64,000 nt of DNA from Candidatus Woesearchaeota archaeon. GTDB lineage: Archaea > Nanobdellota > Nanobdellia > Woesearchaeales > GW2011-AR9. Location of the stretch: assembly GCA_016188115.1 (NCBI GenBank), contig JACPIK010000002.1, positions 680,077 through 744,076 of the forward strand, in the 5' to 3' direction. This document shows, piece by piece, positions 1-11,814 of this stretch. Numbering within the stretch: position 1 is the first letter of the stretch; each line of letters starts with the position of its first letter. The notes under the pieces are model-generated. The model saw nothing but the letters and a program-made list of their open reading frames with translations. It had not been told where the DNA came from and searched no databases. The position numbers were made by a program, and so were the translations under genes.

Positions 1-92
1 TTTTCCCGTAGGAGGGAAGAACTTTTAGTTTACTACTTGTTAGTGGTTAATTGTGGAAAGATTTAAATAATACTAATAATAATTATTAGCCT

Positions 93-236
93 ATGAAACA
101 AGTCTTCACCTGCTCGCTTGACGAACAAACAGTAGAAAAATTACGCACATTCACACGCAGTAGTTCGTTTCGCAATAAAAGTCATGTGGTTGAGCAAGCA
201 CTTCTTAAATTCTTAAAAGATGAGGGGGAGAAATGA
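93..236 (+). CDS. Small ribbon-helix-helix (CopG/Arc/MetJ-like) DNA-binding protein, 47 codons, absent from the ORF track
   Basis: Hand translation from the ATG at 93 gives MKQVFTCSLDEQTVEKLRTFTRSSSFRNKSHVVEQALLKFLKDEGEK. This has the beta-strand, helix, helix pattern of RHH antitoxin/repressor proteins. Its TGA stop at 234-236 overlaps the ATG of the downstream kinase gene (ATGA), so the two are translationally coupled. Confidence 0.45.
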   Translation: MKQVFTCSLDEQTVEKLRTFTRSSSFRNKSHVVEQALLKFLKDEGEK

Positions 237-2491
237 GTCAAAATCCACCTGATTTGGAGAGTATCATAGGAAATGTAACTCAAGTTATACAAGATCACAC
301 CCTATCAAAGCGTAGGACACGTCCAGATTACAATAGTCTCAAAACCGTTGAAGATTGGATTGAGGAAAAAGAAAAGCATCCTGAATGGGCTGGTCTTTCA
401 GCATGGCAAGTCATTAAATTAGGAGGAAATGTCTTTTACAAAGAATTTCAAAAATGGAATAAAAGTAACACAAGCGATACCTCACAGCGCGAAGTTAATT
501 ATAATTCTATATTTAGCCGACAAAGAGAACGCTATGAAAATCTAAGAACGGTCGATGAGTGGATTGAATTTCGTAATAAAAATCACCCCGAATGGAAAGG
601 ACGTACTCGCAACGAAATGGAGGAATCACCTGATTCTAACTCATTTTGGACCAACTATCGTAAATGGACAAGACGTACTGCCCGAACTAAAGAAGAAAAA
701 GAGCAGTTCTTGCAAGTAATGGCATTAAGAACCAGAAATGACTACTCTAGTTTAACCACTATTACTGACTGGAAAAAACTCTACAATGAAAATCCGCACT
801 GGCACAAAATGAGCACCCCAGAACTTCTCAACGATAAGCAAGGAGGAGGTGCTTCATTTTATTCTTCATTTAATTTTTGGATAAGCTCTCAAACCTCTGA
901 CGAAAAAGAAAGAAAAAGAATCCGTCGCAGAGTAATATCATACAACCTTCGAGATTGGTCAGGTTTTGAATCTATTGGCGACTGGATCAATACCTATCTT
1001 AGAACTAATTCTTGGCATGATATGGATTCTACCCATTTAGGTACAGATGAAAAAGGAGAAGGCAAATATTTCTACCATAATTTCAAAAAATTTCTCCAAA
1101 AAGAATATACTACTCAGCGAAAAAGAACACAAGCACGCGCCGTCCTCGACATCAATCTTCCCCCCTACCAATGGGACGCGGTACAAGCAATCAGAGAAGA
1201 ACGTACCCTTGAAGATATCATTGGTGTTGATCGCACTGAAACACGCGAAGCTGTAACTGCAATGAATGCCCTTAAACTTGTTCAAAATCAATGGGGTGAT
1301 TATCTTGATCGTGATAAGTATGCAGGTTTAATTCGAGAGATTTTTAATGATTCAATGTCACTTGAGCACCACGTAGGAAGCGACAGTAAAAGAGTAGAAG
1401 CATATCTACAAGCAGCAGATTTAGAAAAAGTATCAATCACTGAACAAATAGTAGATCCTAGCTCTAAAAATCCCAATGTTCGCATAAGTCTCTATCTAGG
1501 TACAGATCCACAAAGCGGGTCAGATCAAACCATTGAAGCCTTCGTGAAATTCTTTTCAGATAAGCAAGAACGTGATACTGAACTAACATTAACAAACTGG
1601 TTCGCGCAATATTCACAGGTGAAAACCGTTGGACAAGCGCGAGCAACCAAAGTAACAGCAAGAATAGAGAAAAATAATGACCAAACAGAAACATATGACA
1701 CACTAACCATCTGTGCAATTGAAGATAAGACAGGAGAAAATGCATCCTACGTATTAGTAACGCCATTTGCAAATTTACGAACAACGGCTCAAGAACTACA
1801 GGGAAGGGCAGGCCAGAGAGTACTGGACATGATCACCAATGCAGTGTATGAATTTCATCAAACTCCTGCACCCAGCCATAACACCGAAGAAGTTGTTTCC
1901 ACAAGGATGAGATTCGTCCCTTATAGTGAAAGTGCAAGACAAGAAATTGCTAATGAGAATACTTCGCTTTACCAACAAATGCAACGAATGGGCATTATGA
2001 AAAAATTAGACAGATATGCTACTCAACACCAGGCTTTAATTCATGGTGATTGTCACACAAAAAATCTCTTGCTTAATGAAGATAATGAAATCGTATTTGC
2101 TGACCTAGAGAGGACACGAAGGGGAATACCCCAACAAGATATTACCAAATATCTAGGAGCCCGCTCTCACAAATTAAGCACTCAAGAACAACAACGACAA
2201 CTTGATCGCTATATTGCATTATCAGGCATAACAGACCAGCAACAAGGTGCAGAGTTTAAGAGAATATATGATGTTGTAACCGTGTATGAAGAGTTGCGTG
2301 TTTGTCGACATATTGTTGATCGCCCCTCAACATTCCAAACAATAGAAGCATGGCAAGAAAGTTTTGAATATCATTTAGACAGAGCTTTGGATCATGCAAG
2401 AAAAGCCTATTCTGCTACGCAAGTTGAAGCTCTCGAGAAAGCTGCAAGAAAAACTTTAGTAGCTCCACACGCCATACAAAACGCAGTTTAA
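233..2491 (+). CDS. Protein-kinase-like (APH/HipA/CtkA superfamily) protein with four N-terminal ~45-aa tandem repeats
   Basis: The C-terminal half carries a catalytic-loop motif IHGDCHTKNLLL (HGDxxxxN, also DxHxKN) followed by FADLE (DFG-like). The N-terminal ~300 aa hold four degenerate repeats (..L.TV.DWI....HPEW....FY..F.KW). Confidence 0.6.
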   Translation: MSQNPPDLESIIGNVTQVIQDHTLSKRRTRPDYNSLKTVEDWIEEKEKHPEWAGLSAWQVIKLGGNVFYKEFQKWNKSNTSDTSQREVNYNSIFSRQRERYENLRTVDEWIEFRNKNHPEWKGRTRNEMEESPDSNSFWTNYRKWTRRTARTKEEKEQFLQVMALRTRNDYSSLTTITDWKKLYNENPHWHKMSTPELLNDKQGGGASFYSSFNFWISSQTSDEKERKRIRRRVISYNLRDWSGFESIGDWINTYLRTNSWHDMDSTHLGTDEKGEGKYFYHNFKKFLQKEYTTQRKRTQARAVLDINLPPYQWDAVQAIREERTLEDIIGVDRTETREAVTAMNALKLVQNQWGDYLDRDKYAGLIREIFNDSMSLEHHVGSDSKRVEAYLQAADLEKVSITEQIVDPSSKNPNVRISLYLGTDPQSGSDQTIEAFVKFFSDKQERDTELTLTNWFAQYSQVKTVGQARATKVTARIEKNNDQTETYDTLTICAIEDKTGENASYVLVTPFANLRTTAQELQGRAGQRVLDMITNAVYEFHQTPAPSHNTEEVVSTRMRFVPYSESARQEIANENTSLYQQMQRMGIMKKLDRYATQHQALIHGDCHTKNLLLNEDNEIVFADLERTRRGIPQQDITKYLGARSHKLSTQEQQRQLDRYIALSGITDQQQGAEFKRIYDVVTVYEELRVCRHIVDRPSTFQTIEAWQESFEYHLDRALDHARKAYSATQVEALEKAARKTLVAPHAIQNAV

Positions 2492-3396
2492 AGATACACC
2501 GCATAAAACGGCCCAACAATATCTTGACAGCGCCTCATCATTTTTGCGCAACGCAGGACGACATGATGATCTATTTTAGGATCTTTAAGTAAAGCTAGCA
2601 ACTCTTTATTCATAAAATGGTCTTTACGTTTTGCAAACATTTCTAAGTAGGAAATGTCTTTTTTGAAATAAGAACTAAAAAGTTCGTCAACAGTTTGAAA
2701 AATTGAAGTTACTATTGCCCTTGTTTTCTCAGATGATTTGATAGAAGAACTCTCAAGATAATGATATAAATAATCTACCTCGTTAGAAATCTTCTCAAGG
2801 TCGCGTACGATAAGATATTCAAAGATGCAAGTATCGCGAAAGCGTAAATTTTTGTTGAAAATCCGTTTAACATAGTCTGCATACCGAGTAATAATCTCGC
2901 GATATTCATGGACCTCATTGCCTCGCTTAAACGAATTTGTTACTAAATCTTCACCAATCTTACGCATATTTTCTTTTAACAAGTAGAAGCTTTTTTTGAA
3001 AAGTAATTCATATTCACTCTCCATCTCGACTGAAATATTTCGAAGCGTGCATTTTTTATCAGCAACATCCACAACCTCAAACCCAATGAGATTACGAGTT
3101 AGATTCTCAATTTCTTTAAATATAGAATGATCCTCAAAATGAACCTGGATTATATCATATCCCTTTTTGTACGCATTACTCAACTTTATTTTCATTAAAT
3201 GAATCGGCATTGAGCGCGATAGCGTGAGAGTAATCTCATTGCGACGTAACGCACCTTTGCCAGCCACCACCAACCGATTTTCCTCTTCTTCTATTTCAAT
3301 TACATCTCCTGCTTGGAGATTATGTTCTTGAAGCCATTTAGCAGGCAGAGTAACCGTAAGTGCATTATTTCCCTGTTTGACAAGTTTACGTTGCAT
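2488..3396 (-). CDS. AbrB/SpoVT-domain plus PhoU-like regulator
   Basis: The N-terminus VKQGNNALTVTLPAKWLQEHNLQAGDVIEIE is a swapped-hairpin AbrB/MazE-type domain. The long helical C-terminal domain resembles archaeal PhoU-homolog regulators. It is convergent with the kinase gene, and the two stop codons overlap at a TTAA. Confidence 0.55.
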   Translation of the reverse strand: MQRKLVKQGNNALTVTLPAKWLQEHNLQAGDVIEIEEEENRLVVAGKGALRRNEITLTLSRSMPIHLMKIKLSNAYKKGYDIIQVHFEDHSIFKEIENLTRNLIGFEVVDVADKKCTLRNISVEMESEYELLFKKSFYLLKENMRKIGEDLVTNSFKRGNEVHEYREIITRYADYVKRIFNKNLRFRDTCIFEYLIVRDLEKISNEVDYLYHYLESSSIKSSEKTRAIVTSIFQTVDELFSSYFKKDISYLEMFAKRKDHFMNKELLALLKDPKIDHHVVLRCAKMMRRCQDIVGPFYAVYL

Positions 3397-3515: not shown

Positions 3516-4370
3516 ATGAAACAAACACTTTATTCAACTTTAACTGCATTGACGCTAGCTGCGTGTGGTGGAACGGCACCAGGGGTTAATCAATCTGAGA
3601 CCATTAATGACACCCAACGTCAAGAAGCAATCGCATCGCTTCAAAAACGTGGAGTTACAATCGATGAAACATTATCCTGCGGCCCTTTCACAAATGGTTT
3701 TGGAGAAAATCCACAACCAGAAGGCAATGCTCAGTTCAAAGCTACTAGCTCTTATTTTAAAGATAAAGGAGAGAACCTACTCCGAACTCAAAGTTATAAC
3801 GCATTTAAGATTTCACTTACTCAGGATAGAGCAGGAAAATACCATGCCCATGAAATAGGAAATACAAAAACTGAACGAGGCCTGGATTCATTTGCGCGAT
3901 TTGTCTGCTATGTTTCTAGTAAGCCCAGTTACACTAAAGAGATTGAAGGCAAAGAACTCGAAGATGGAAAACGTGAAGATGGAAAAGCAACCTATGGTCG
4001 TCTTGTAAGAGAAATGGATCAAAAGTTTAGTGCTGCAGTTGAAGAATCCGATAGACGTTTTGACGAAGCAGTGAGAGAATCAGACCGCAGATTTGATGAC
4101 ACCCTACGCAGAAGTAATGAGCGTTTTGATGAATTAAGAGAGAAAAACCGCCAAAGATTTGAGGACACAGTTAAGCGAAATAGAGAGCGATTTAACGAAA
4201 CAAGAAGCCAATTTGACGAAGAAGTAGAAGCTACGAGTGATGATTCTAAGTGTAATAAACAATACCTAGCTGATCTTGCAGTGTGTGAAAGATCACTCTA
4301 CGAAGACCACAAAAAACAATGCGCAGACCGAGCACTTCGAGAAGCTAATTGGTGCAAAGAATTTGAATAA
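3516..4370 (+). CDS. Secreted lipoprotein-like protein with internal RFDE coiled repeats
   Basis: Signal peptide MKQTLYSTLTALTLAACGG with a lipobox-like LAAC. The C-terminal half contains 11-aa repeats (ESDRRFDEAVR, ESDRRFDDTLR, SNERFDELREK, NRQRFEDTVKR, NRERFNETRSQ). Confidence 0.5.
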   Translation: MKQTLYSTLTALTLAACGGTAPGVNQSETINDTQRQEAIASLQKRGVTIDETLSCGPFTNGFGENPQPEGNAQFKATSSYFKDKGENLLRTQSYNAFKISLTQDRAGKYHAHEIGNTKTERGLDSFARFVCYVSSKPSYTKEIEGKELEDGKREDGKATYGRLVREMDQKFSAAVEESDRRFDEAVRESDRRFDDTLRRSNERFDELREKNRQRFEDTVKRNRERFNETRSQFDEEVEATSDDSKCNKQYLADLAVCERSLYEDHKKQCADRALREANWCKEFE

Positions 4371-4388: not shown

Positions 4389-5246
4389 ATGAAACAAACA
4401 TTAACTGGATTAACATTAATCGTTGCAGGTTGCGGATCACAAAATCCCTACCAGCGATTTGAACAAGCAGATATACCAAAATCAACACCACAAATCACAA
4501 ACCAAGATCTTGCTGACAATTGGAAACAGACGACCACTGTGTATGAAGATGGAACTACTCAAATCTCTGCAACAAGAGAAAATGAAGACGGTTCATTTAA
4601 TTTTTCATCTCGTCAAAATGAAAATTCAAGAGGACCAAAGTATGATGGAATTCTCGACAATCTTAGTCCACAGCTAATAGGAGAAAGTTATGTTGCAGAT
4701 CCCCTTGCACGAAACGATTTTATTCAAGTGCTCGCACATCAAACTGGGTACCTTCCCAAAGCACGATCCTTTGAAATTAGTGCTAATGGAAAAGAAGTCA
4801 AATGTAATGAATCTCAAAGCGGTTTCTACATCCCATTTAAAATTTTAGAGGAAAACAAAGAACGAGCTGAATCACTGGCTAGTGAAATTGATTTCAATAA
4901 TGACCATGTACTTACACGGTGGGAGATTTGGGATTATGGACGTAGAGAAATGGAAGTTTGGTGCCCACTTCCAACGGGAGTAACACCAGAAACAGTTGCA
5001 AAAGAGTTTGAACAAAACATTGCTTTTAACCAAGAAAAGGACTCTTATCGCGTTGTAGTATGTGATGAAAATAGATTTGTTTCACAAGCCGTTCTTGATT
5101 ACAAAGCACAACTCTTCTTTTCACAAGAAAGGGGAACGGGGGATCCTATTAAAGACAGTAGCAAATGGCAAGGATCAAGCCGAGTAGATCTTCGTCGTTT
5201 TGATGACAAAGCTTGTGCAGTGTACGAAGTGCGATTACTCGATTAA
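4389..5246 (+). CDS. Secreted lipoprotein-like protein (N-terminus paralogous to the previous gene)
   Basis: Signal peptide MKQTLTGLTLIVAGCGS with lipobox VAGC. The N-terminus MKQTL matches the upstream gene, suggesting a tandem duplicate. Confidence 0.5.
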   Translation: MKQTLTGLTLIVAGCGSQNPYQRFEQADIPKSTPQITNQDLADNWKQTTTVYEDGTTQISATRENEDGSFNFSSRQNENSRGPKYDGILDNLSPQLIGESYVADPLARNDFIQVLAHQTGYLPKARSFEISANGKEVKCNESQSGFYIPFKILEENKERAESLASEIDFNNDHVLTRWEIWDYGRREMEVWCPLPTGVTPETVAKEFEQNIAFNQEKDSYRVVVCDENRFVSQAVLDYKAQLFFSQERGTGDPIKDSSKWQGSSRVDLRRFDDKACAVYEVRLLD

Positions 5247-6707: not shown

Positions 6708-7226
6708 ATGCCTCTTTTAGCGAATCAAAGCCCCATTGTACTTCTTGAACCCCACCATGAAAAAGATCTTCTTAGAGAATTATTACGCCGGTTACAAGAA
6801 AAAAATTCTCTTAAATTTGAAGAATTAATCACCTTGTATACCCAAACATCCCCTCAAAAAACGATCCCCTGTTCAATATTTAATTACAATCTTCATCCCG
6901 CAGAAGCTCTCTGTAAATATCTTAAAGAAAACCAACATCTTACATTCCAACAAATCGCCCTTCTTCTAAATCGAAATCAAAAAAGTATGTGGGCTACCTA
7001 CCAACGAGCAATAAAACATCGCAAACAACCTTTTCCTCTCAAAGAAGAAACATTTATCATACCTTTAACTCTCTTTTCATCTAGAAAAAAGAGCGTGTTT
7101 GAAAATGTGGTTTTATATCTTACAACAACCTATCAGCTTTCAATTCCTGCAATAGCCCAGTTGCTTCAAAGTACCCCTGCATCTATACAAGTAATATTAA
7201 CACGGGCGAGACAAAAACATGACTAG
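6708..7226 (+). CDS. Putative DNA-binding protein with two sigma-70-region-4-like HTH motifs
   Basis: LTFQQIALLLNRNQKSMWATYQRAIK and LSIPAIAQLLQSTPASIQVILTRARQK both resemble HTH (sigma-70 region 4 / LuxR-like). The stop overlaps the start of the 1531-aa gene. Confidence 0.4.
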   Translation: MPLLANQSPIVLLEPHHEKDLLRELLRRLQEKNSLKFEELITLYTQTSPQKTIPCSIFNYNLHPAEALCKYLKENQHLTFQQIALLLNRNQKSMWATYQRAIKHRKQPFPLKEETFIIPLTLFSSRKKSVFENVVLYLTTTYQLSIPAIAQLLQSTPASIQVILTRARQKHD

Positions 7227-10200
7227 CGACCCTTGGCAATCGCGACAACGTCGCGTGGAAAAAGAACTAGAAAAAAACAACCTGCCTCAGACTATAAGAA
7301 GCAACACTCCTCGCTATGAAGTGATAGTAGAATCACCACAACCTAAACAAAAGACAAAAAAAGCCCCCCGACAAATCGCATGGAAAGCAGTTGCGCTCTT
7401 AATCATTATTTTCAGTATCAGTTTCCTATTTGTAACACAAACACCCTCTTCACAAAACACACAAAGTATCACTGGTGCAGCCATAACAAATGTAGACACT
7501 ACGGTCAAAACACCAACCTCAAACTTAACAACAGCACCAATCCCAGAAGAACAATATACCAGCAGTGGTATTGGGAGTCAGAACCCTTACCGCACATTAG
7601 GTAGTATCACCAACCCTAGTTTTGAAGACGCCATAACTACAGAATGGGTATATTCAGAAACTGACACAGAATTTACAGGAGGACGTGTCGCACCCACCAA
7701 TTACGTTCCAACACAAGGATCATATGTATATCTTTTAGGACAAGACACTTCAACTGGAGCAGGCGGTAGCCCCGTCCTTAATATTGTCCCTGGAGTCTAT
7801 TCACAAGTTTTGCAAACCATTGATCTCACTGACGTAACAGACATAAAGTTTGATACAAAATATATTGATTACTATGGCATATCCAGTTATTTCAACATTA
7901 GTGCATTTATTGATTCGACGCTAGTCTGGTCCAGATTGAGTATCGACTACCAAGCAGAGAATATTACATTGGATACCTCTACATATTCTGGCAGCCACGA
8001 TCTTAAATTTAGGCTTACAGGATTATTTACAGGAGCAATTTACGAACCAGCCTGGTTTATTGATAACATTAGATTAAATCAAACGGTTACGTATCTCATT
8101 ACTAATTATAATCTTACTCCTTCAATCGCATATTTTGACACACCTTTGATTGCGCAAGCAACATATAGCAGTAACGCAACAGGAAATGTTTCCTTTCGCT
8201 GGTCAATAAATGGACAAAATAAGTTTAACTTAACAAATCTCTCCGTAAATCCAAATTCTTATATTACTAATACCCTACAGCCAGGAAATTTTACAACAGG
8301 AGACTCAATTTCACTTTCAATTACAGGACAAAATGCAACAGATTCTTCCACTACCTCTCCTCTTACACTCACCATTTCAAGCTACACCCCAAATCTTACA
8401 TCCGTTCTCTTAAATACAACCCACAACACATATAGTGATAATGACAACTTAACATTATATCTAAACTCTTCGAGTCAGCAAGGGTTTACACTTCATAATA
8501 TTATTAATTGGTACAAAAATAATGTGCCATTATTAGTAGTAAATATGCCATTTGAACGAGTAAATGGCACTAACACCAACAATGCATATGACTATTCTAT
8601 ATACGCGCATAACGGCTCGGAAAATGGAGGTGTTGTCTGGAATCGCACCATTGGATATGGTACAACAGGCGCCTATATCTTTGATGGAGCAAACGATTAC
8701 CTTCAGATTGAACAAGTCCCCCAAATAACAAAAAATTTTAGTGTTGAATATTGGGTAATGCGAAATGGAACACGACATGAAGCGTTTGCATTCACAAACG
8801 ACGGTTCCCAAAATAAAGATGACCCCTTTAGTTGGGATGGAAACCAGATAAATATTGGAGATGGACTTAATCATGAAATAAAAACAGTCACTCTTGCCGC
8901 AGATACTAATGTTTGGACACATATTATTTTTACAGTTGATGGATCAAACAAAATATTGCGCCAATATAAGAATGGCACGCTAGTAGATGATCTTTCATTA
9001 ACATATACCCCTAGTTCATTTCCAAATAAATTTCTTCGTATAGGACGAGGCGGATTTGCCGAAATTTACACAGAATATTTTCAAGGAGCAATTGATAATT
9101 TTCGCGTTTACAACCGCACACTTACACCAGACCAAGTAAAACTACTTTATCAAAATCAAACCGATGTTATTGTACAAAATGAAACCTATCTCGGCGAAAC
9201 CTGGAAAGCCTGCGTAACAATCCATGATACCTTCGAATCTTCAAATAGCACTTGCAGTAATTCTATCACATTTGGTGATAACCACATACCCACTCAATTT
9301 CAACCAATTATTCAGTCACTCGATGCAACTACTTCAACATCTACTGATCTTGCATGTTACAATCAATCTACAACGGATTTTGAAAATGACCCTGTCAAAA
9401 ACATTTACAATTGGAAAGTCAACGATAAATCAATCGCTGTTCTCAACATGCCATTTGAAAATTACTCTTTAACTTACAGCGGCGAAACAAAAGATTATTC
9501 TGGGTACAATAATAATGGAACCAATACCAGTGGAGCATTCTGGAATGCCACCGGTGGATTTGATGGCAAAGGGGCATATCGACTTGATGGCGTTGATGAT
9601 TATATTTCAATAAAAAATAATGCTAGTCTTAACTTCGTAACCAATTATAGTATCTCATTCTGGACCAAGAATGAGGTTAGCCCTGCTAATTTTGACACAA
9701 TCCTTGCTAAAACAAGTGGTACTGGGTGGAGTGATGGATATGGAATATATTATTCATCCAGCAGTCAAATAAATTTTTGGGTAAGTGCATATGGCAGTGC
9801 ATACGCGTACGCCACCATTACACCTACATTGTGGAACCATGTTGTTGGAACATACGATGGCTCCACAATCAGAATTTTCGTTAACGGTGTAGAAGGCACG
9901 CCAGGAACGCGAACAACGCCCGCAACCAACACCGCCGCGTTAGAGATTGGAAGAGGTGCAAGTAATAGTTATAACATTGATGGACACATAGATGAATTAC
10001 TCATTTTTAATCGTAGTCTTAGTACAGATGAAGTAAAACTTCTCTTTCAAAATAAAACCAACACTACCTCATTTCGAGAATTACAACAAGGCGAAACATG
10101 GGCTTGTGAAATAACCCCCAACGATGCTCATGGTGATGGACAAAATAAAACCAGTACTGCTGTAACCATCAGCGCTAATACTATCCCTACAGTAACAGTA

Positions 10201-11814
10201 GCGTTTAACTCATCAACAAAAGACAATACCTCTGCTCAAGATCTTATGGTGTATCCAACGATCATCGATGCAGACCAAACCAGAACAACAACAATCGCTA
10301 ATTATCTCGTCAACAATAGTGAAATGATGTTGCTAAACATGCCTTTTGAAGCTAAAAGTAATACTACCAACACTACCGACTATTCACATTTCCATAATCA
10401 TGGAGTCGTAAGTGGACCATCATGGTATGCGCAAGGGGGAATCAACGGATCAGGAATGTATAGTTTGCATGGTGGCACCGACACAATAGTAATCAATGAC
10501 CAAGATTACCTTGATTTTGGAACAAATAAATCATTTATGTTTTGGTACAAACCAATATCGACAACAGCCAACCAACATGTCATGGGAAAAGGAAAAGGAG
10601 CAGGAACATACGAAGGATGTATAATGAGAATGAGCTCGACGCTCGCATTTCAATGTTATAATTCTGCAGGAATCGAAGATGTGTCAATAACAACAAATAC
10701 AGTACCATTAAATGAATGGAATCTTGTTTCTATTGTATTTTACAATAATAATGTTACATTCTACCTCAACGGCAATTATAATTCCTCTGACTTATCTTAT
10801 CAAGCAACTTATAATTCTGACTCACCCTTAAAGATAGGACAAGCGCAAACCGGATGGAGTGGTTCAGCCACAGATGGATTTGTAGATAATGTTCAAATTT
10901 GGAATCGCAGCCTTACACCAGAACAACTCAAAACCATGTACCAAACCCAACGAAATCTGGTTATCAACAGTAGTGAACTTAAAATTCATGATGTTTGGAA
11001 AGTCAACGTCACTGTGAGTGATAGCGTTGATAATTCTGTGGGAGTAATGAGCTCACCGATCACTATTCTTAATGAACCAGTAGGCAATAGTCCACCTAGC
11101 GCGCCATTACTTGTAGCCCCATCAAATCTCACCACTACCATCGTACGAACCCCGCAATTTAATTGGACAACATCCAATGACAGCGATGGTAATCAACTTA
11201 CCTACAACCTTGTTATAGATGATAACATTTTGTTCAACAATCTGGAAATAAATGTCACCGGAATTGGTAACCTTACTTCAGGTAATGTTACATATAATAT
11301 TTCAACAGAATTAGATGTAGACAAAACCTATTTCTGGCGAGTGCGAGCCAATGATGGAACAGATTTTGGACCATATTCAAATGTATCCAATTTCACCCTC
11401 AGTTCCTATCTAGCAATTACCCTTACTCAGGACACCATTAACTTTGGTAGTGTCTCACTTTTCACACGCGCCAACACCACATCAGGAACACCGCGACCAT
11501 TTAGAGCAGAAAACGTAGGAAACATTATTGCTAACGTGACCATCTCTGCTACTTCCTACTTTAGTTCTGTTCCTTTCCCTTCAAGTTATTATCAATTCAA
11601 AATACGGGAAAACGAAACAGGAGCATTTAATCTAACACATTCCAATACGAGCTTTATCAACATGGTTAACTCTACCATATTGCCTCACGTTTGGGGTCTT
11701 GATTGGCATGATTTCAAGAATGATTTTCTCGCGGACATATTAGTGCAATTACCAGATACAGAACCAATAGGACCAAAAAACTCAACAGTTACATTTAGTA
11801 TATCACAACAATGA
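7219..11814 (+). CDS. Giant cell-surface protein: N-terminal TM anchor, three LamG-like (concanavalin A-like lectin) domains, C-terminal fn3-like domain
   Basis: Three paralogous modules (LLNMPFE...DGxxDY..I...W.H....DG......YvNG......L.IG.....F.G.IDe..I.NR.L) are typical of the Laminin_G_3 jellyroll. Each is followed by an ETW.C..T..D motif. The C-terminal region (PQFNWTTSNDSDGNQLTYNL...YFWRVRANDG) is fn3-like. The N-terminal TM is AVALLIIIFSISFLFV. N-x-S/T sequons are very dense. Confidence 0.75.
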   Translation: MTSDPWQSRQRRVEKELEKNNLPQTIRSNTPRYEVIVESPQPKQKTKKAPRQIAWKAVALLIIIFSISFLFVTQTPSSQNTQSITGAAITNVDTTVKTPTSNLTTAPIPEEQYTSSGIGSQNPYRTLGSITNPSFEDAITTEWVYSETDTEFTGGRVAPTNYVPTQGSYVYLLGQDTSTGAGGSPVLNIVPGVYSQVLQTIDLTDVTDIKFDTKYIDYYGISSYFNISAFIDSTLVWSRLSIDYQAENITLDTSTYSGSHDLKFRLTGLFTGAIYEPAWFIDNIRLNQTVTYLITNYNLTPSIAYFDTPLIAQATYSSNATGNVSFRWSINGQNKFNLTNLSVNPNSYITNTLQPGNFTTGDSISLSITGQNATDSSTTSPLTLTISSYTPNLTSVLLNTTHNTYSDNDNLTLYLNSSSQQGFTLHNIINWYKNNVPLLVVNMPFERVNGTNTNNAYDYSIYAHNGSENGGVVWNRTIGYGTTGAYIFDGANDYLQIEQVPQITKNFSVEYWVMRNGTRHEAFAFTNDGSQNKDDPFSWDGNQINIGDGLNHEIKTVTLAADTNVWTHIIFTVDGSNKILRQYKNGTLVDDLSLTYTPSSFPNKFLRIGRGGFAEIYTEYFQGAIDNFRVYNRTLTPDQVKLLYQNQTDVIVQNETYLGETWKACVTIHDTFESSNSTCSNSITFGDNHIPTQFQPIIQSLDATTSTSTDLACYNQSTTDFENDPVKNIYNWKVNDKSIAVLNMPFENYSLTYSGETKDYSGYNNNGTNTSGAFWNATGGFDGKGAYRLDGVDDYISIKNNASLNFVTNYSISFWTKNEVSPANFDTILAKTSGTGWSDGYGIYYSSSSQINFWVSAYGSAYAYATITPTLWNHVVGTYDGSTIRIFVNGVEGTPGTRTTPATNTAALEIGRGASNSYNIDGHIDELLIFNRSLSTDEVKLLFQNKTNTTSFRELQQGETWACEITPNDAHGDGQNKTSTAVTISANTIPTVTVAFNSSTKDNTSAQDLMVYPTIIDADQTRTTTIANYLVNNSEMMLLNMPFEAKSNTTNTTDYSHFHNHGVVSGPSWYAQGGINGSGMYSLHGGTDTIVINDQDYLDFGTNKSFMFWYKPISTTANQHVMGKGKGAGTYEGCIMRMSSTLAFQCYNSAGIEDVSITTNTVPLNEWNLVSIVFYNNNVTFYLNGNYNSSDLSYQATYNSDSPLKIGQAQTGWSGSATDGFVDNVQIWNRSLTPEQLKTMYQTQRNLVINSSELKIHDVWKVNVTVSDSVDNSVGVMSSPITILNEPVGNSPPSAPLLVAPSNLTTTIVRTPQFNWTTSNDSDGNQLTYNLVIDDNILFNNLEINVTGIGNLTSGNVTYNISTELDVDKTYFWRVRANDGTDFGPYSNVSNFTLSSYLAITLTQDTINFGSVSLFTRANTTSGTPRPFRAENVGNIIANVTISATSYFSSVPFPSSYYQFKIRENETGAFNLTHSNTSFINMVNSTILPHVWGLDWHDFKNDFLADILVQLPDTEPIGPKNSTVTFSISQQ

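What the first reader, a model, noticed from the sequence alone, without database searches (positions are those of the whole stretch)
93..2491. Unannotated ribbon-helix-helix ORF translationally coupled to a HipA/APH-like kinase: a possible kinase-type toxin-antitoxin or regulatory pair
A 47-codon ORF (93..236), missing from the ORF track, encodes a textbook RHH fold sequence. Its stop overlaps the ATG of a 752-aa protein whose C-terminal half has the catalytic loop HGDCHTKN (fits both APH HGDxxxxN and HipA DxHxKN) and FADLE. A small DNA-binding protein coupled to a HipA-like kinase mirrors HipBA architecture. Here the partner is RHH rather than HTH-XRE, and the kinase carries an extra N-terminal repeat domain. 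I am not aware of this combination being described.
Basis: partly seen in the sequence, partly recalled or inferred. Interest (0 to 1): 0.75.

Follow-up and report, generated by a model that had tools for sequence, protein, structure and literature searches.

The report
Conserved archaeal repressor–kinase–regulator gene cluster
A tiny DNA-binding protein gene overlapping a large kinase gene is real and conserved in Woesearchaeota, always beside a third regulator gene, and it looks like a lineage-specific regulatory module rather than a HipBA-type toxin-antitoxin pair.

Summary
A 47-codon ORF (93..236) overlaps by ATGA the start of a 752-aa ORF (233..2491). The small ORF is a real gene: 12 relatives, 41-83% identical, with saturated synonymous sites (pS 0.6-1.0, pN 0.09-0.43). 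It is a bare CopG-type ribbon-helix-helix. A conserved TATA box and a perfect 8-bp palindrome (73..89) precede it.

The large protein is an APH-family kinase, not HipA. Pfam APH scores 40.6 bits against a cut-off of 23.2, with no HipA hit. The AlphaFold model matches APH(9), APH(3'), YtaA and YihE. K439, D606, N611 and D624 are invariant in 14 relatives. Four roughly 70-aa W-rich helical repeats of an unclassified family precede the kinase, and relatives carry different N-terminal arrays.

New here: in divergent Woesearchaeota the cluster is RHH, kinase, then a convergent ~300-aa AbrB-plus-PhoU-like regulator (2488..3396, minus strand). No other flanking gene is conserved. More distant AbrB-PhoU homologues have a Hanks-type protein kinase at the same position.

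The toxin-antitoxin reading is disfavoured. The RHH has no neutralising tail, is far more conserved than the kinase, and sits among housekeeping genes. Most likely this is an autorepressed kinase operon in a regulatory module with the AbrB-PhoU protein. The substrate is unknown. Interest is moderate.

The parts
54..69 (+). Archaeal promoter: purine-rich BRE-like GGAAAG followed by the TATA box ATTTAAATAA. It is centred about 28 nt upstream of the ATG, which implies a leaderless transcript.
   Evidence: The consensus block 'AAACATTTATATA' lies 24-65 nt upstream of the RHH start codon in 9 aligned loci, with 11 invariant columns. The leaderless reading is an inference from standard archaeal TATA-to-start spacing.
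73..89 (.). Putative RHH operator: perfect 8-bp inverted repeat CTAATAAT-A-ATTATTAG between the TATA box and the start codon.
   Evidence: The arms are 100% complementary with a 1-nt spacer. It is the only perfect copy in the 64-kb window. '(A)CTAATAA...TTATTA(G)' recurs right after the TATA box in L003, L008, L011 and L013. L012 has an RHH with different predicted DNA-reading beta-strand residues, and it carries a different palindrome, TACTACT-C-AGTAGTA, at the same place. Binding itself is inferred, not shown.
93..236 (+). 47-aa CopG-type ribbon-helix-helix protein: beta strand KQVFTCSL, helix A, loop with the near-invariant motif (F/Y)RNKSH (N28, K29 and S30 invariant), helix B.
   Evidence: 12 relatives (13 sequences aligned) are 41-83% identical over the alignment. 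RHH_1 hits 11 of 13 members. The profile matches CopG (2cpg, 45 aa). pN is 0.085-0.44 against pS 0.52-1.0 or higher.
222..236 (+). Coupling junction: Shine-Dalgarno-like GAGGGGGAG, then ATGA where the RHH stop overlaps the kinase start.
   Evidence: Read directly from the sequence. The downstream ORF overlaps or abuts the RHH ORF in L003 (1 nt), L004 (10 nt), L005 (14 nt) and L008 (16 nt).
233..2491 (+). 752-aa two-part protein: an N-terminal W-rich helical repeat array plus a C-terminal APH-fold kinase module.
320..1165 (+). Four ~70-aa W-rich alpha-helical repeats (aa 30-311). Consensus: DWS..TI.DW..E...HPEW.G.S......GG..FY.AF..W.
1211..2476 (+). Conserved C-terminal module (aa 327-748): a helical linker plus an APH/choline-kinase-fold kinase domain.
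   Evidence: Pfam APH gives E=3e-10 and 40.6 bits against a cut-off of 23.2. About 25 representatives share the module. The AF2 model has pLDDT 78 and pTM 0.78. Foldseek finds APH(9), APH(3'), YtaA and YihE at E about 1e-7, probability 1.0.
1547..1549 (+). K439 in the FVKF motif, the ATP-anchoring beta3 lysine.
   Evidence: Invariant in alignment A2, 14 sequences. Its role is inferred from the kinase fold.
2042..2065 (+). Catalytic loop HGDCHTKN (D606 catalytic base, N611 metal ligand).
   Evidence: D and N are invariant; G and the second H are at least 90% conserved. Position confirmed.
2096..2110 (+). FADLE, with D624 as the DFG-equivalent Mg-binding aspartate. It is followed by the conserved G.PQ.D segment (aa 631-636, nt 2123-2140).
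   Evidence: D624, Q634 and D636 are invariant in A2.
2488..3396 (-). 302-aa regulator: an N-terminal AbrB/SpoVT/MazE-type DNA-binding domain plus a helical PhoU-like domain. It is convergent with the kinase, and the two stop codons overlap (TTAA, 2488-2491).
   Evidence: Pfam MazE_antitoxin E=4.5e-9 over aa 6-44. It is adjacent to the kinase in all 12 distinct kinase loci that have enough sequence. Family member P0143 aligns full-length (hhalign 99.9%) and has a PhoU hit above cut-off at aa 136-217, which corresponds to about aa 134-212 in the window protein. JGI names relatives 'phosphate uptake regulator'.

Best explanation
This is a three-gene regulatory cluster specific to Woesearchaeota and related DPANN archaea.

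1. A bare CopG-type RHH dimer binds the palindrome between the TATA box and the start of its own leaderless transcript. By doing so it represses the RHH-kinase operon (inferred).
2. The kinase is made from the same mRNA through an SD-assisted ATGA restart. It is a catalytically competent APH-fold phosphotransferase (shown at the level of sequence and predicted structure).
3. Its exchangeable N-terminal helical-repeat array gives target or partner recognition (inferred).
4. It works together with the convergently encoded AbrB-PhoU-like DNA-binding regulator. Most likely it is a protein kinase that phosphorylates, or is controlled by, that regulator. This would be loosely analogous to PhoU modulating the PhoR kinase in bacteria (inferred from gene linkage only).

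It is not a HipBA-type toxin-antitoxin pair.
For: - **The RHH is a real gene.** It is conserved and under purifying selection. It belongs to RHH_1/CopG at family level.
- **Promoter and operator.** A conserved TATA box is followed by a palindrome. A lineage whose RHH beta strand differs has a different palindrome at the same place.
- **Coupling.** Overlapping or abutting ORFs are conserved.
- **Kinase family.** APH is above its Pfam cut-off, K/D/N/D are invariant, and the model has the APH fold.
- **Three-gene linkage.** Linkage is kept although the AbrB proteins are only 17-44% identical. None of six other flanking genes has a detectable homologue in any of the related loci.
- **A kinase slot beside the AbrB-PhoU gene.** In 3 of 6 more distant AbrB-PhoU loci the convergent neighbour is a Hanks-type protein kinase, above Pfam cut-offs. 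This suggests the regulator's partner is a protein kinase whatever its fold.
- **Context.** The cluster sits among ribosomal protein, SerRS and thioredoxin genes. There is no PADLOC defence hit.
Against: - No experiment or direct evidence identifies the substrate. The APH family includes many small-molecule kinases.
- The link to the AbrB-PhoU protein rests on gene neighbourhood only.
- The PhoU-like assignment for the window protein is transitive. Only 1 of 11 aligned members has even a weak PhoU hit (E=0.037), and a further family member, P0143, has a clear one.
- The palindrome is AT-rich and short, so its status as an operator is an inference.
- The kinase diverges very fast and swaps its N-terminal arrays. 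That pattern also fits conflict systems.
- L010 has the kinase and the AbrB gene but no RHH.
Confidence: 0.5

Rival explanations
1. Type II, or HipBST-like tripartite, toxin-antitoxin system. The kinase is a growth-arresting toxin. The RHH is the antitoxin or auxiliary repressor. The MazE/AbrB-fold protein is possibly the true neutraliser.
For: A small DNA-binding gene lies upstream and overlaps a kinase gene, which is the classic type II layout. VapB_antitoxin and RHH_3 profiles weakly hit some RHH relatives. The third gene has a MazE/AbrB-type domain. In HipBST the DNA-binding HipB is not itself the neutraliser (PMC8262856), so a bare RHH could play that role.
Against: The kinase is not a Hip-family kinase. 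The Hip-kinase survey I consulted mentions no RHH partner. The RHH is 47 aa, which is just the fold, with no conserved C-terminal toxin-binding tail. The RHH is far more conserved than the kinase. The toxin candidate is 640-1250 aa with variable repeat arrays. The cluster is single-copy in the window, lies in a housekeeping context, and is linked to the same neighbour across deep divergence. The AbrB gene is in a separate, convergent transcription unit.
Confidence: 0.1
2. Small-molecule kinase operon. The APH-fold enzyme phosphorylates a metabolite, antibiotic, sugar, lipid head group or similar compound. The RHH is simply its transcriptional repressor. The AbrB-PhoU neighbour is linked through phosphate or metabolite homeostasis.
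For: The closest profiles and structures include aminoglycoside, spectinomycin, choline/ethanolamine and MTR kinases. The catalytic loop is of the HGDxxxxN type. The neighbour is annotated 'phosphate uptake regulator'.
Against: All named NCBIfam and Pfam subfamily hits are far below their cut-offs, so no substrate class is indicated. Small-molecule APH enzymes are usually 250-350 aa without large exchangeable repeat arrays (my knowledge). Hanks-type protein kinases replace it beside AbrB-PhoU homologues. The APH neighbours also include protein kinases (YihE/SrkA, YtaA/CotI).
Confidence: 0.2
3. Biological-conflict or defence module. The kinase is an effector whose diversifying N-terminal repeat arrays sense invader molecules. 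The RHH keeps it repressed.
For: N-terminal arrays are swapped among otherwise orthologous kinases. The kinase diverges fast while the RHH stays constant. The W-rich repeat is also fused to SNF2, BrxC/D, methyltransferase, LAGLIDADG and AHJR/Vsr-like nuclease domains. Two relatives give sub-threshold hits to TCAD9, a kinase-like domain of NTP-dependent conflict systems.
Against: There is no PADLOC hit for any of the three proteins. The window protein has no TCAD9 hit, and the relatives' hits are below cut-off. The chromosomal position beside the AbrB-PhoU gene is stable, the context is housekeeping, and there are no neighbouring defence or mobile genes.
Confidence: 0.15

Closest known systems
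CopG (pMV158) / Arc-type minimal RHH repressors (Pfam RHH_1, PF01402)
   Same: The length is 45-47 aa and the layout is beta-alpha-alpha, with an N-terminal MK.(hydrophobic/polar alternation) strand. The family profile hits CopG 2cpg. A palindromic site overlaps its own promoter.
   Different: It is archaeal and chromosomal, and it controls a kinase operon rather than plasmid replication. It has a distinctive near-invariant (F/Y)RNKSH motif at the start of helix B. The window sequence alone is below the Pfam cut-off.
APH / choline-kinase-like phosphotransferases (Pfam PF01636), e.g. APH(9)-Ia, APH(3')-Ia, B. subtilis YtaA (CotI), E. coli YihE (SrkA)
   Same: The profile match is above the cut-off. 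It has the HGDxxxxN catalytic loop, the D(F/L)E metal site and the beta3 Lys. The predicted fold matches.
   Different: Identity to any solved structure is only 10-18%. phmmer reaches no ordinary APH protein among 1.84 billion representatives; apart from two multi-domain kinase-like proteins, P0096 and P0104, which match only the catalytic region, it finds just about 25 members of its own subfamily. It has a ~100-aa helical pre-domain and a 200-900-aa exchangeable N-terminal repeat array. It is fixed in a three-gene cluster.
HipBA / HipBST kinase toxin-antitoxin modules
   Same: A small DNA-binding protein gene lies upstream of, and overlaps, a kinase gene. The catalytic loop superficially resembles DxHxKN.
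   Different: There is no HipA_N or HipA_C profile match, and HipA is not among the top structural neighbours. The partner is an RHH, not an HTH-XRE protein. There is no neutralising domain. The conservation pattern and genomic behaviour are unlike toxin-antitoxin modules.
Bacterial PhoU-PhoR (PhoU as modulator of a sensor kinase) and archaeal AbrB-PhoU 'phosphate uptake regulator' proteins
   Same: A PhoU-like helical protein is genetically tied to a kinase. It has an N-terminal AbrB/SpoVT DNA-binding domain, as in archaeal COG0704-type proteins.
   Different: The kinase is APH-fold or Hanks-type, not a histidine kinase. There are no pst genes nearby. The PhoU similarity is weak in the window protein. 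The PhoU-PhoR analogy rests on my own knowledge and was not tested.

Membership tests
HipA kinase family (HipA_N/HipA_C) and HipBA toxin-antitoxin | Significant match to HipA_C/HipA_N profiles, or HipA as a structural neighbour | tested here: not met
   The Pfam scan at E<=1 returns only APH, EcKL and RIO1. The Foldseek PDB top 50 are all APH, YtaA, YihE or choline-kinase type.
HipA kinase family (HipA_N/HipA_C) and HipBA toxin-antitoxin | Upstream HTH (Cro/XRE) HipB-type antitoxin | tested here: not met
   The upstream protein is an RHH. The Hip survey I consulted mentions no RHH partners.
HipA kinase family (HipA_N/HipA_C) and HipBA toxin-antitoxin | Kinase-dependent growth arrest that the partner neutralises | not testable with these tools
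   Needs an expression and rescue assay.
APH / phosphotransferase enzyme family (PF01636) | Profile match above Pfam's gathering score | tested here: met
   40.6 bits against 23.2, E=3.1e-10, aa 506-672. Relatives in L003, L005 and L008 are also above the cut-off.
APH / phosphotransferase enzyme family (PF01636) | Catalytic residues: beta3 Lys, HxDxxxxN loop, DFG-equivalent Asp | tested here: met
   K439, D606, N611 and D624 are invariant in 14 family members.
APH / phosphotransferase enzyme family (PF01636) | Bilobal APH/ePK-like fold | tested here: met
   The AF2 model has pLDDT 78 and pTM 0.78. Foldseek probability is 1.00 to APH(9), APH(3'), YtaA and YihE.
APH / phosphotransferase enzyme family (PF01636) | Defined substrate class (aminoglycoside, choline, MTR, protein...) | tested here: inconclusive
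   All NCBIfam subfamily hits are far below their cut-offs, for example SrkA 27 against 194 bits and APH(9) 24 against 675.
RHH_1 / CopG family | Profile match | tested here: met
   The window protein alone scores 14.7 bits, below the 20.5 cut-off. However, 11 of 13 orthologues hit RHH_1 (best E 5e-7), and the family profile hits CopG 2cpg.
RHH_1 / CopG family | Dimeric binding to an inverted-repeat operator at its own promoter | tested here: inconclusive
   A perfect 8-bp inverted repeat lies between the TATA box and the ATG, and its position is conserved. Binding was not tested.
Type II toxin-antitoxin module | Antitoxin with a toxin-neutralising region in addition to the DNA-binding fold | tested here: not met
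   Of the 47 aa, about 44 form the RHH. C-terminal tails in relatives are low-complexity and not conserved.
Type II toxin-antitoxin module | Patchy, mobile or multi-copy distribution | tested here: not met
   It is single-copy in the window. The three-gene linkage is fixed across divergent genomes. The neighbours are housekeeping genes. Whole-genome copy number was not examined.
AbrB-PhoU 'phosphate uptake regulator'-like proteins (neighbour gene) | N-terminal SpoVT/AbrB/MazE swapped-hairpin domain | tested here: met
   PF04014 gives E=4.5e-9 and 36.6 bits against 24.7. All 11 of 11 orthologues hit it at E<=0.1, the weakest (L005) below the cut-off.
AbrB-PhoU 'phosphate uptake regulator'-like proteins (neighbour gene) | PhoU domain (PF01895) | tested here: inconclusive
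   The window protein has no hit. Family member P0143 scores 33.2 bits against 23.5 and aligns full-length to the family (hhalign 99.9%).
Known anti-phage defence systems (PADLOC) / TCAD9 conflict-system kinase domain | Profile match | tested here: not met
   None of the three proteins has a PADLOC hit. TCAD9 hits appear only in two relatives and are below the cut-off: 32.6 and 24.8 bits against 40.

The most novel reading that the evidence does not exclude
Woesearchaeota and related DPANN archaea use a previously undescribed signalling module. An APH-fold protein kinase, or in sister lineages a Hanks-type kinase, has a swappable helical-repeat sensor or targeting array. It is wired to two dedicated DNA-binding regulators: a near-invariant CopG-like RHH and an AbrB-PhoU fusion. 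The kinase controls their DNA binding by phosphorylation, for example at the invariant Ser30 that caps RHH helix B. In these archaea, this would function as the equivalent of a two-component system. The W-rich repeat would be a new nucleic-acid- or protein-targeting module shared with helicases, methyltransferases and homing-type nucleases.
Probability: 0.25. Interest if true: 0.7.

Novelty: new variant of a known kind. Interest (0 to 1): 0.5.

Why it matters
DPANN archaea have tiny genomes, and their signalling is largely unknown. This gene trio stays linked while everything around it is reshuffled, and a different kinase fold substitutes at the same position in sister lineages. It is therefore a concrete, testable candidate for a lineage-specific regulatory circuit. 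The work also defines an isolated APH subfamily: about 25 representatives at 50% identity among 1.84 billion proteins. It further defines an unclassified ~70-aa helical repeat that is fused to many DNA-acting enzymes. Finally, it corrects a tempting but wrong HipBA-like toxin-antitoxin annotation.

Tried and rejected
- **Word-indexed homologue search with the whole kinase.** It found only the protein itself. The exhaustive phmmer search was needed.
- **Sequence searches of PDB.** Neither the kinase nor the RHH as a single sequence gave a hit. The RHH profile's best 'hit', PRDM9 zinc fingers, is a spurious 8-residue string match, FRNKSHL.
- **Profile of the AbrB-PhoU family against PDB.** Nothing significant.
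- **BLAST self-comparison of the N-terminus.** It did not reveal the repeats because they are too divergent. They were seen by eye and through homologue alignment A6.
- **PADLOC.** No hits.
- **Literature searches.** RHH with kinase in Woesearchaeota, and AbrB/PhoU with protein kinase in archaea, both returned nothing. The TCAD9 search returned mostly unrelated plant CAD papers.
- **Wider synteny.** A search for conserved synteny beyond the three genes found none.
- **RHH beside Hanks-type kinases.** A search for an RHH next to the Hanks-type kinases found none.
- **HipA reading.** Rejected on profile and fold evidence.
- **A conserved RNA or DNA element instead of a protein.** Rejected because synonymous sites are saturated while the protein is conserved.
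Full report
**Source and observation.** The window comes from a Candidatus Woesearchaeota archaeon; the two proteins are on a 1.47-Mb NCBI contig. The ORFs are exactly as described. The 47-codon ORF runs 93..236. The 752-codon ORF runs 233..2491 and starts inside the stop of the first (ATGA). A strong Shine-Dalgarno-like GAGGGGGAG lies at 222-230. HGDCHTKN is aa 604-611 and FADLE is aa 622-626. The small ORF is not actually unannotated. NCBI lists it as hypothetical protein HYV86_03715, and gene callers call it in two metagenome assemblies.

**The small ORF is a real, strongly constrained gene.**
- A word-indexed search found six homologues, 62-89% identical.
- With those found next to kinase homologues there are 12 relatives, 13 aligned sequences in all.
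- M1, K2, N28, K29, S30, V33, E34 and A36 are invariant.
- Pairwise codon analysis shows synonymous sites at or near saturation (pS 0.52-1.0 or higher), while non-synonymous differences stay at 0.085-0.44. Window against L003 gives pN 0.085 and pS 0.79.
It also excludes a nucleotide-level element as the reason for conservation.
- The window sequence alone is below Pfam's RHH_1 cut-off (E=0.03).
- However, 11 of 13 family members hit RHH_1 (best E 5e-7). The family profile also aligns from residue 1 with the 45-aa plasmid repressor CopG (2cpg, E=0.05).
- At 47 aa it is only the beta-alpha-alpha fold. C-terminal tails in some relatives are low-complexity and not conserved.

**Promoter and putative operator.**
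- Nine loci share the block 'AAACATTTATATA' 24-65 nt upstream of the ATG. This looks like an archaeal BRE/TATA, and the spacing implies a leaderless mRNA.
- Directly after it the window has a perfect inverted repeat, CTAATAAT-A-ATTATTAG (73-89). It is the only perfect copy in 64 kb.
- Similar 'ACTAATAA..TTATTA' elements follow the TATA box in L003, L008, L011 and L013.
- L012 has an RHH with different residues at the predicted DNA-reading strand positions (K4, S6, T8 instead of V4, T6, S8). It carries a different palindrome, TACTACT-C-AGTAGTA, at the same place.
- A repressor site between the TATA box and the start is a standard archaeal way of blocking RNA polymerase recruitment. That is established knowledge; binding here is inferred.

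**The large protein is an APH-family kinase, not HipA.**
- Pfam gives APH at 40.6 bits against a cut-off of 23.2. EcKL scores 23.3 bits (just above its 22.0 cut-off) and RIO1 is weaker. No HipA model appears even at E<=1.
- NCBIfam subfamily hits (SrkA/YihE, APH(9), MTR kinase, CotI) are all far below their cut-offs, so no substrate class follows.
- An exhaustive phmmer search of 1.84 billion representatives found only 99 hits, in two classes. About 25 share the C-terminal module (aa ~327-748). About 70 share only the N-terminal repeats.
- In a 14-sequence alignment of the module, K439 (FVKF), D606 and N611 (HGDxxxxN), D624 (FxD) and Q634/D636 are invariant. The enzyme is therefore predicted to be active.
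- An AlphaFold model of aa 320-752 has pLDDT 78 and pTM 0.78.
- Its top PDB neighbours are APH(9)-Ia, APH(3')-Ia, YtaA, YihE, LicA and choline/ethanolamine kinases (E about 1e-7, probability 1.0). No HipA appears in the top 50.

**The N-terminal repeats.**
- Residues 30-311 are four ~70-aa W-rich repeats (consensus DWS..TI.DW..E...HPEW.G.S...GG..FY.AF..W).
- The model is confidently helical (pLDDT 84) but has no significant fold match. It has no Pfam family either.
- In other proteins the repeat is fused to SNF2 helicase, methyltransferase, BrxC/D, LAGLIDADG and AHJR/Vsr-like nuclease domains. That hints at a nucleic-acid- or target-recognition role, which is an inference.
- Within the kinase family the N-terminal array is exchangeable. 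Some members have W-rich arrays. Others have a different ~100-aa 'GWKDPEKA...' repeat, a mixture of the two, or neither.

**Conserved three-gene cluster.**
- From the RHH side, L003, L004, L005 and L008 all have an APH-type kinase ORF downstream. It overlaps the RHH ORF directly, except in L005 where a 119-aa ORF lies between them.
- From the kinase side, 8 independently retrieved loci from GTDB genomes and JGI metagenomes were examined. In 7 of them the RHH is directly upstream; L010 lacks it.
- In every locus with enough sequence, a ~300-aa protein is immediately adjacent. It is convergent and tail-to-tail, except in L012 where it lies upstream.
- This protein (window 2488..3396, minus strand) has an N-terminal AbrB/SpoVT/MazE domain (E=4.5e-9). 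The rest is helical and, by transitive homology, PhoU-like.
- Relative conservation is striking. The RHH is 62-89% identical, the AbrB-PhoU protein 17-44%, and the kinase C-terminal half 26-35%. Kinase N-terminal halves are unrelated.
- The L004 kinase shows no BLAST similarity to the window kinase, and the L005 kinase matches the family profile only weakly and locally. Both give APH Pfam hits: L005 above the cut-off, L004 just below it (21.3 against 23.2 bits).
- None of six other flanking genes has a detectable homologue in any of the related loci. The linkage of these three genes is therefore selected, not residual synteny.

**A different kinase fold in the same slot.** I anchored on more distant AbrB-PhoU homologues and examined six loci. 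In three of them (L018, L020, L022) a large Hanks-type protein kinase occupies the same convergent position; Pkinase scores 57-102 bits against a cut-off of 31.7. None has an RHH. In L022 a 61-aa ORF that looks AbrB-like by eye abuts the kinase start; it has no Pfam hit. The other three loci have no kinase. Kinases are presumably few in these small genomes, so chance is an unlikely explanation. This suggests the AbrB-PhoU protein's functional partner is a kinase regardless of fold, and it favours a protein-kinase role for the APH-type enzyme. This is inference from gene neighbourhood.

**Why a toxin-antitoxin system is unlikely.**
- The kinase is not Hip-family.
- The RHH has no neutralising extension.
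- The 'antitoxin' is far more conserved than the 'toxin'.
- The 'toxin' is 640-1250 aa with modular arrays.
- The cluster is single-copy in the window.
- It sits among ribosomal protein L1/L10, SerRS, SAM synthetase and thioredoxin genes.
- It keeps the same partner gene over deep divergence.
- A survey of Hip-kinase modules mentions HTH, HipS and HIRAN partners but no RHH.
- A tripartite toxin-antitoxin variant is not excluded without a toxicity assay.

**Mechanism I commit to (confidence about 0.5 overall).** The RHH autorepresses a leaderless bicistronic RHH-kinase operon through the 73-89 palindrome. The kinase is translated by coupled restart. Its repeat array selects the target or partner. 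It acts with the convergent AbrB-PhoU-like regulator as a lineage-specific phospho-regulatory module. Shown here are gene reality, family assignments, catalytic competence at sequence and model level, and conserved linkage. Inferred are operator binding, the protein substrate, and the interaction with AbrB-PhoU. The rivals are a small-molecule kinase operon (0.2), a conflict or defence module (0.15) and a toxin-antitoxin system (0.1).

**Novelty and score.** Each part belongs to a known superfamily. New are the isolated kinase subfamily, the unclassified repeat, the near-invariant RHH, and the conserved RHH / kinase / AbrB-PhoU arrangement with kinase-fold replacement. I found no description of these in the searchable literature. 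I class this as a new variant of a known kind, with moderate interest (0.5).

Noticed in passing
window 2488-2491; also L004 7470-7481, L008 8359-8362, L011 ~6323: The kinase gene and the AbrB-PhoU-like gene are convergent, and their stop codons overlap (TTAA) or abut. There is no room for terminators, so the two transcripts must overlap at their 3' ends. This could allow antisense effects or transcriptional interference.
   Followed up: partly
L018 6939-8687(-), L020 6902-9586(-), L022 5858-7936(-): Distant homologues of the AbrB-PhoU-like gene have a Hanks-type Ser/Thr protein kinase (582-894 aa) at the same convergent position, instead of the APH-type kinase. In L022 a 61-aa small ORF that looks AbrB-like by eye (no Pfam hit) abuts the kinase start (7936-8121, minus strand).
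   Followed up: partly
window 320-1165 (aa 30-311); proteins P0011-P0106: The W-rich ~70-aa helical repeat is an unclassified family, with no Pfam match and no PDB fold match. It also occurs in repeat-only proteins. Elsewhere it is fused to SNF2, methyltransferase, BrxC/D, LAGLIDADG and AHJR/Vsr-like nuclease domains.
   Followed up: partly
P0016, P0021, P0043, P0053, P0055; L011-L013, L017 kinase ORFs: A second N-terminal repeat type of about 100 aa ('..GWKDPEKAIANVRHALFHDIPELE..CP.F.G..Y.A...SL.EF..') replaces or joins the W-rich repeat in other members of the kinase family. It was not characterised.
   Followed up: no
window 3516-4370 and 4389-5246 (+): Two tandem ~285-aa ORFs both begin MKQTL and have a lipobox-like ..A(A/G)CG motif. 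Neither has a credible Pfam family. They are not conserved next to the cluster in related loci.
   Followed up: partly
L005 6137-6496 and 9022-10242: In one relative, a 119-aa ORF is inserted between the RHH and the kinase, and a 406-aa ORF follows the kinase before the AbrB-like gene. Neither has a Pfam hit.
   Followed up: no
L010 3700-4400: One Woesearchaeota locus has the kinase and the AbrB-PhoU gene but no RHH ORF upstream. What appears to be a minus-strand gene (read by eye, not checked) occupies that space.
   Followed up: partly
whole window: GC skew is negative in almost every 2-kb bin across the 64 kb; cumulative skew falls steadily to -3.9. AT skew is mostly positive. This is consistent with a single replication arm or a strong coding-strand bias.
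   Followed up: no
L001 16476-21582 (= window ~6708-11814): A 172-aa ORF with a faint Sigma70_r4_2 hit is followed by, and overlaps, a 1531-aa Laminin_G_3 protein. A sigma-70 region 4-like protein is unusual in an archaeon.
   Followed up: no
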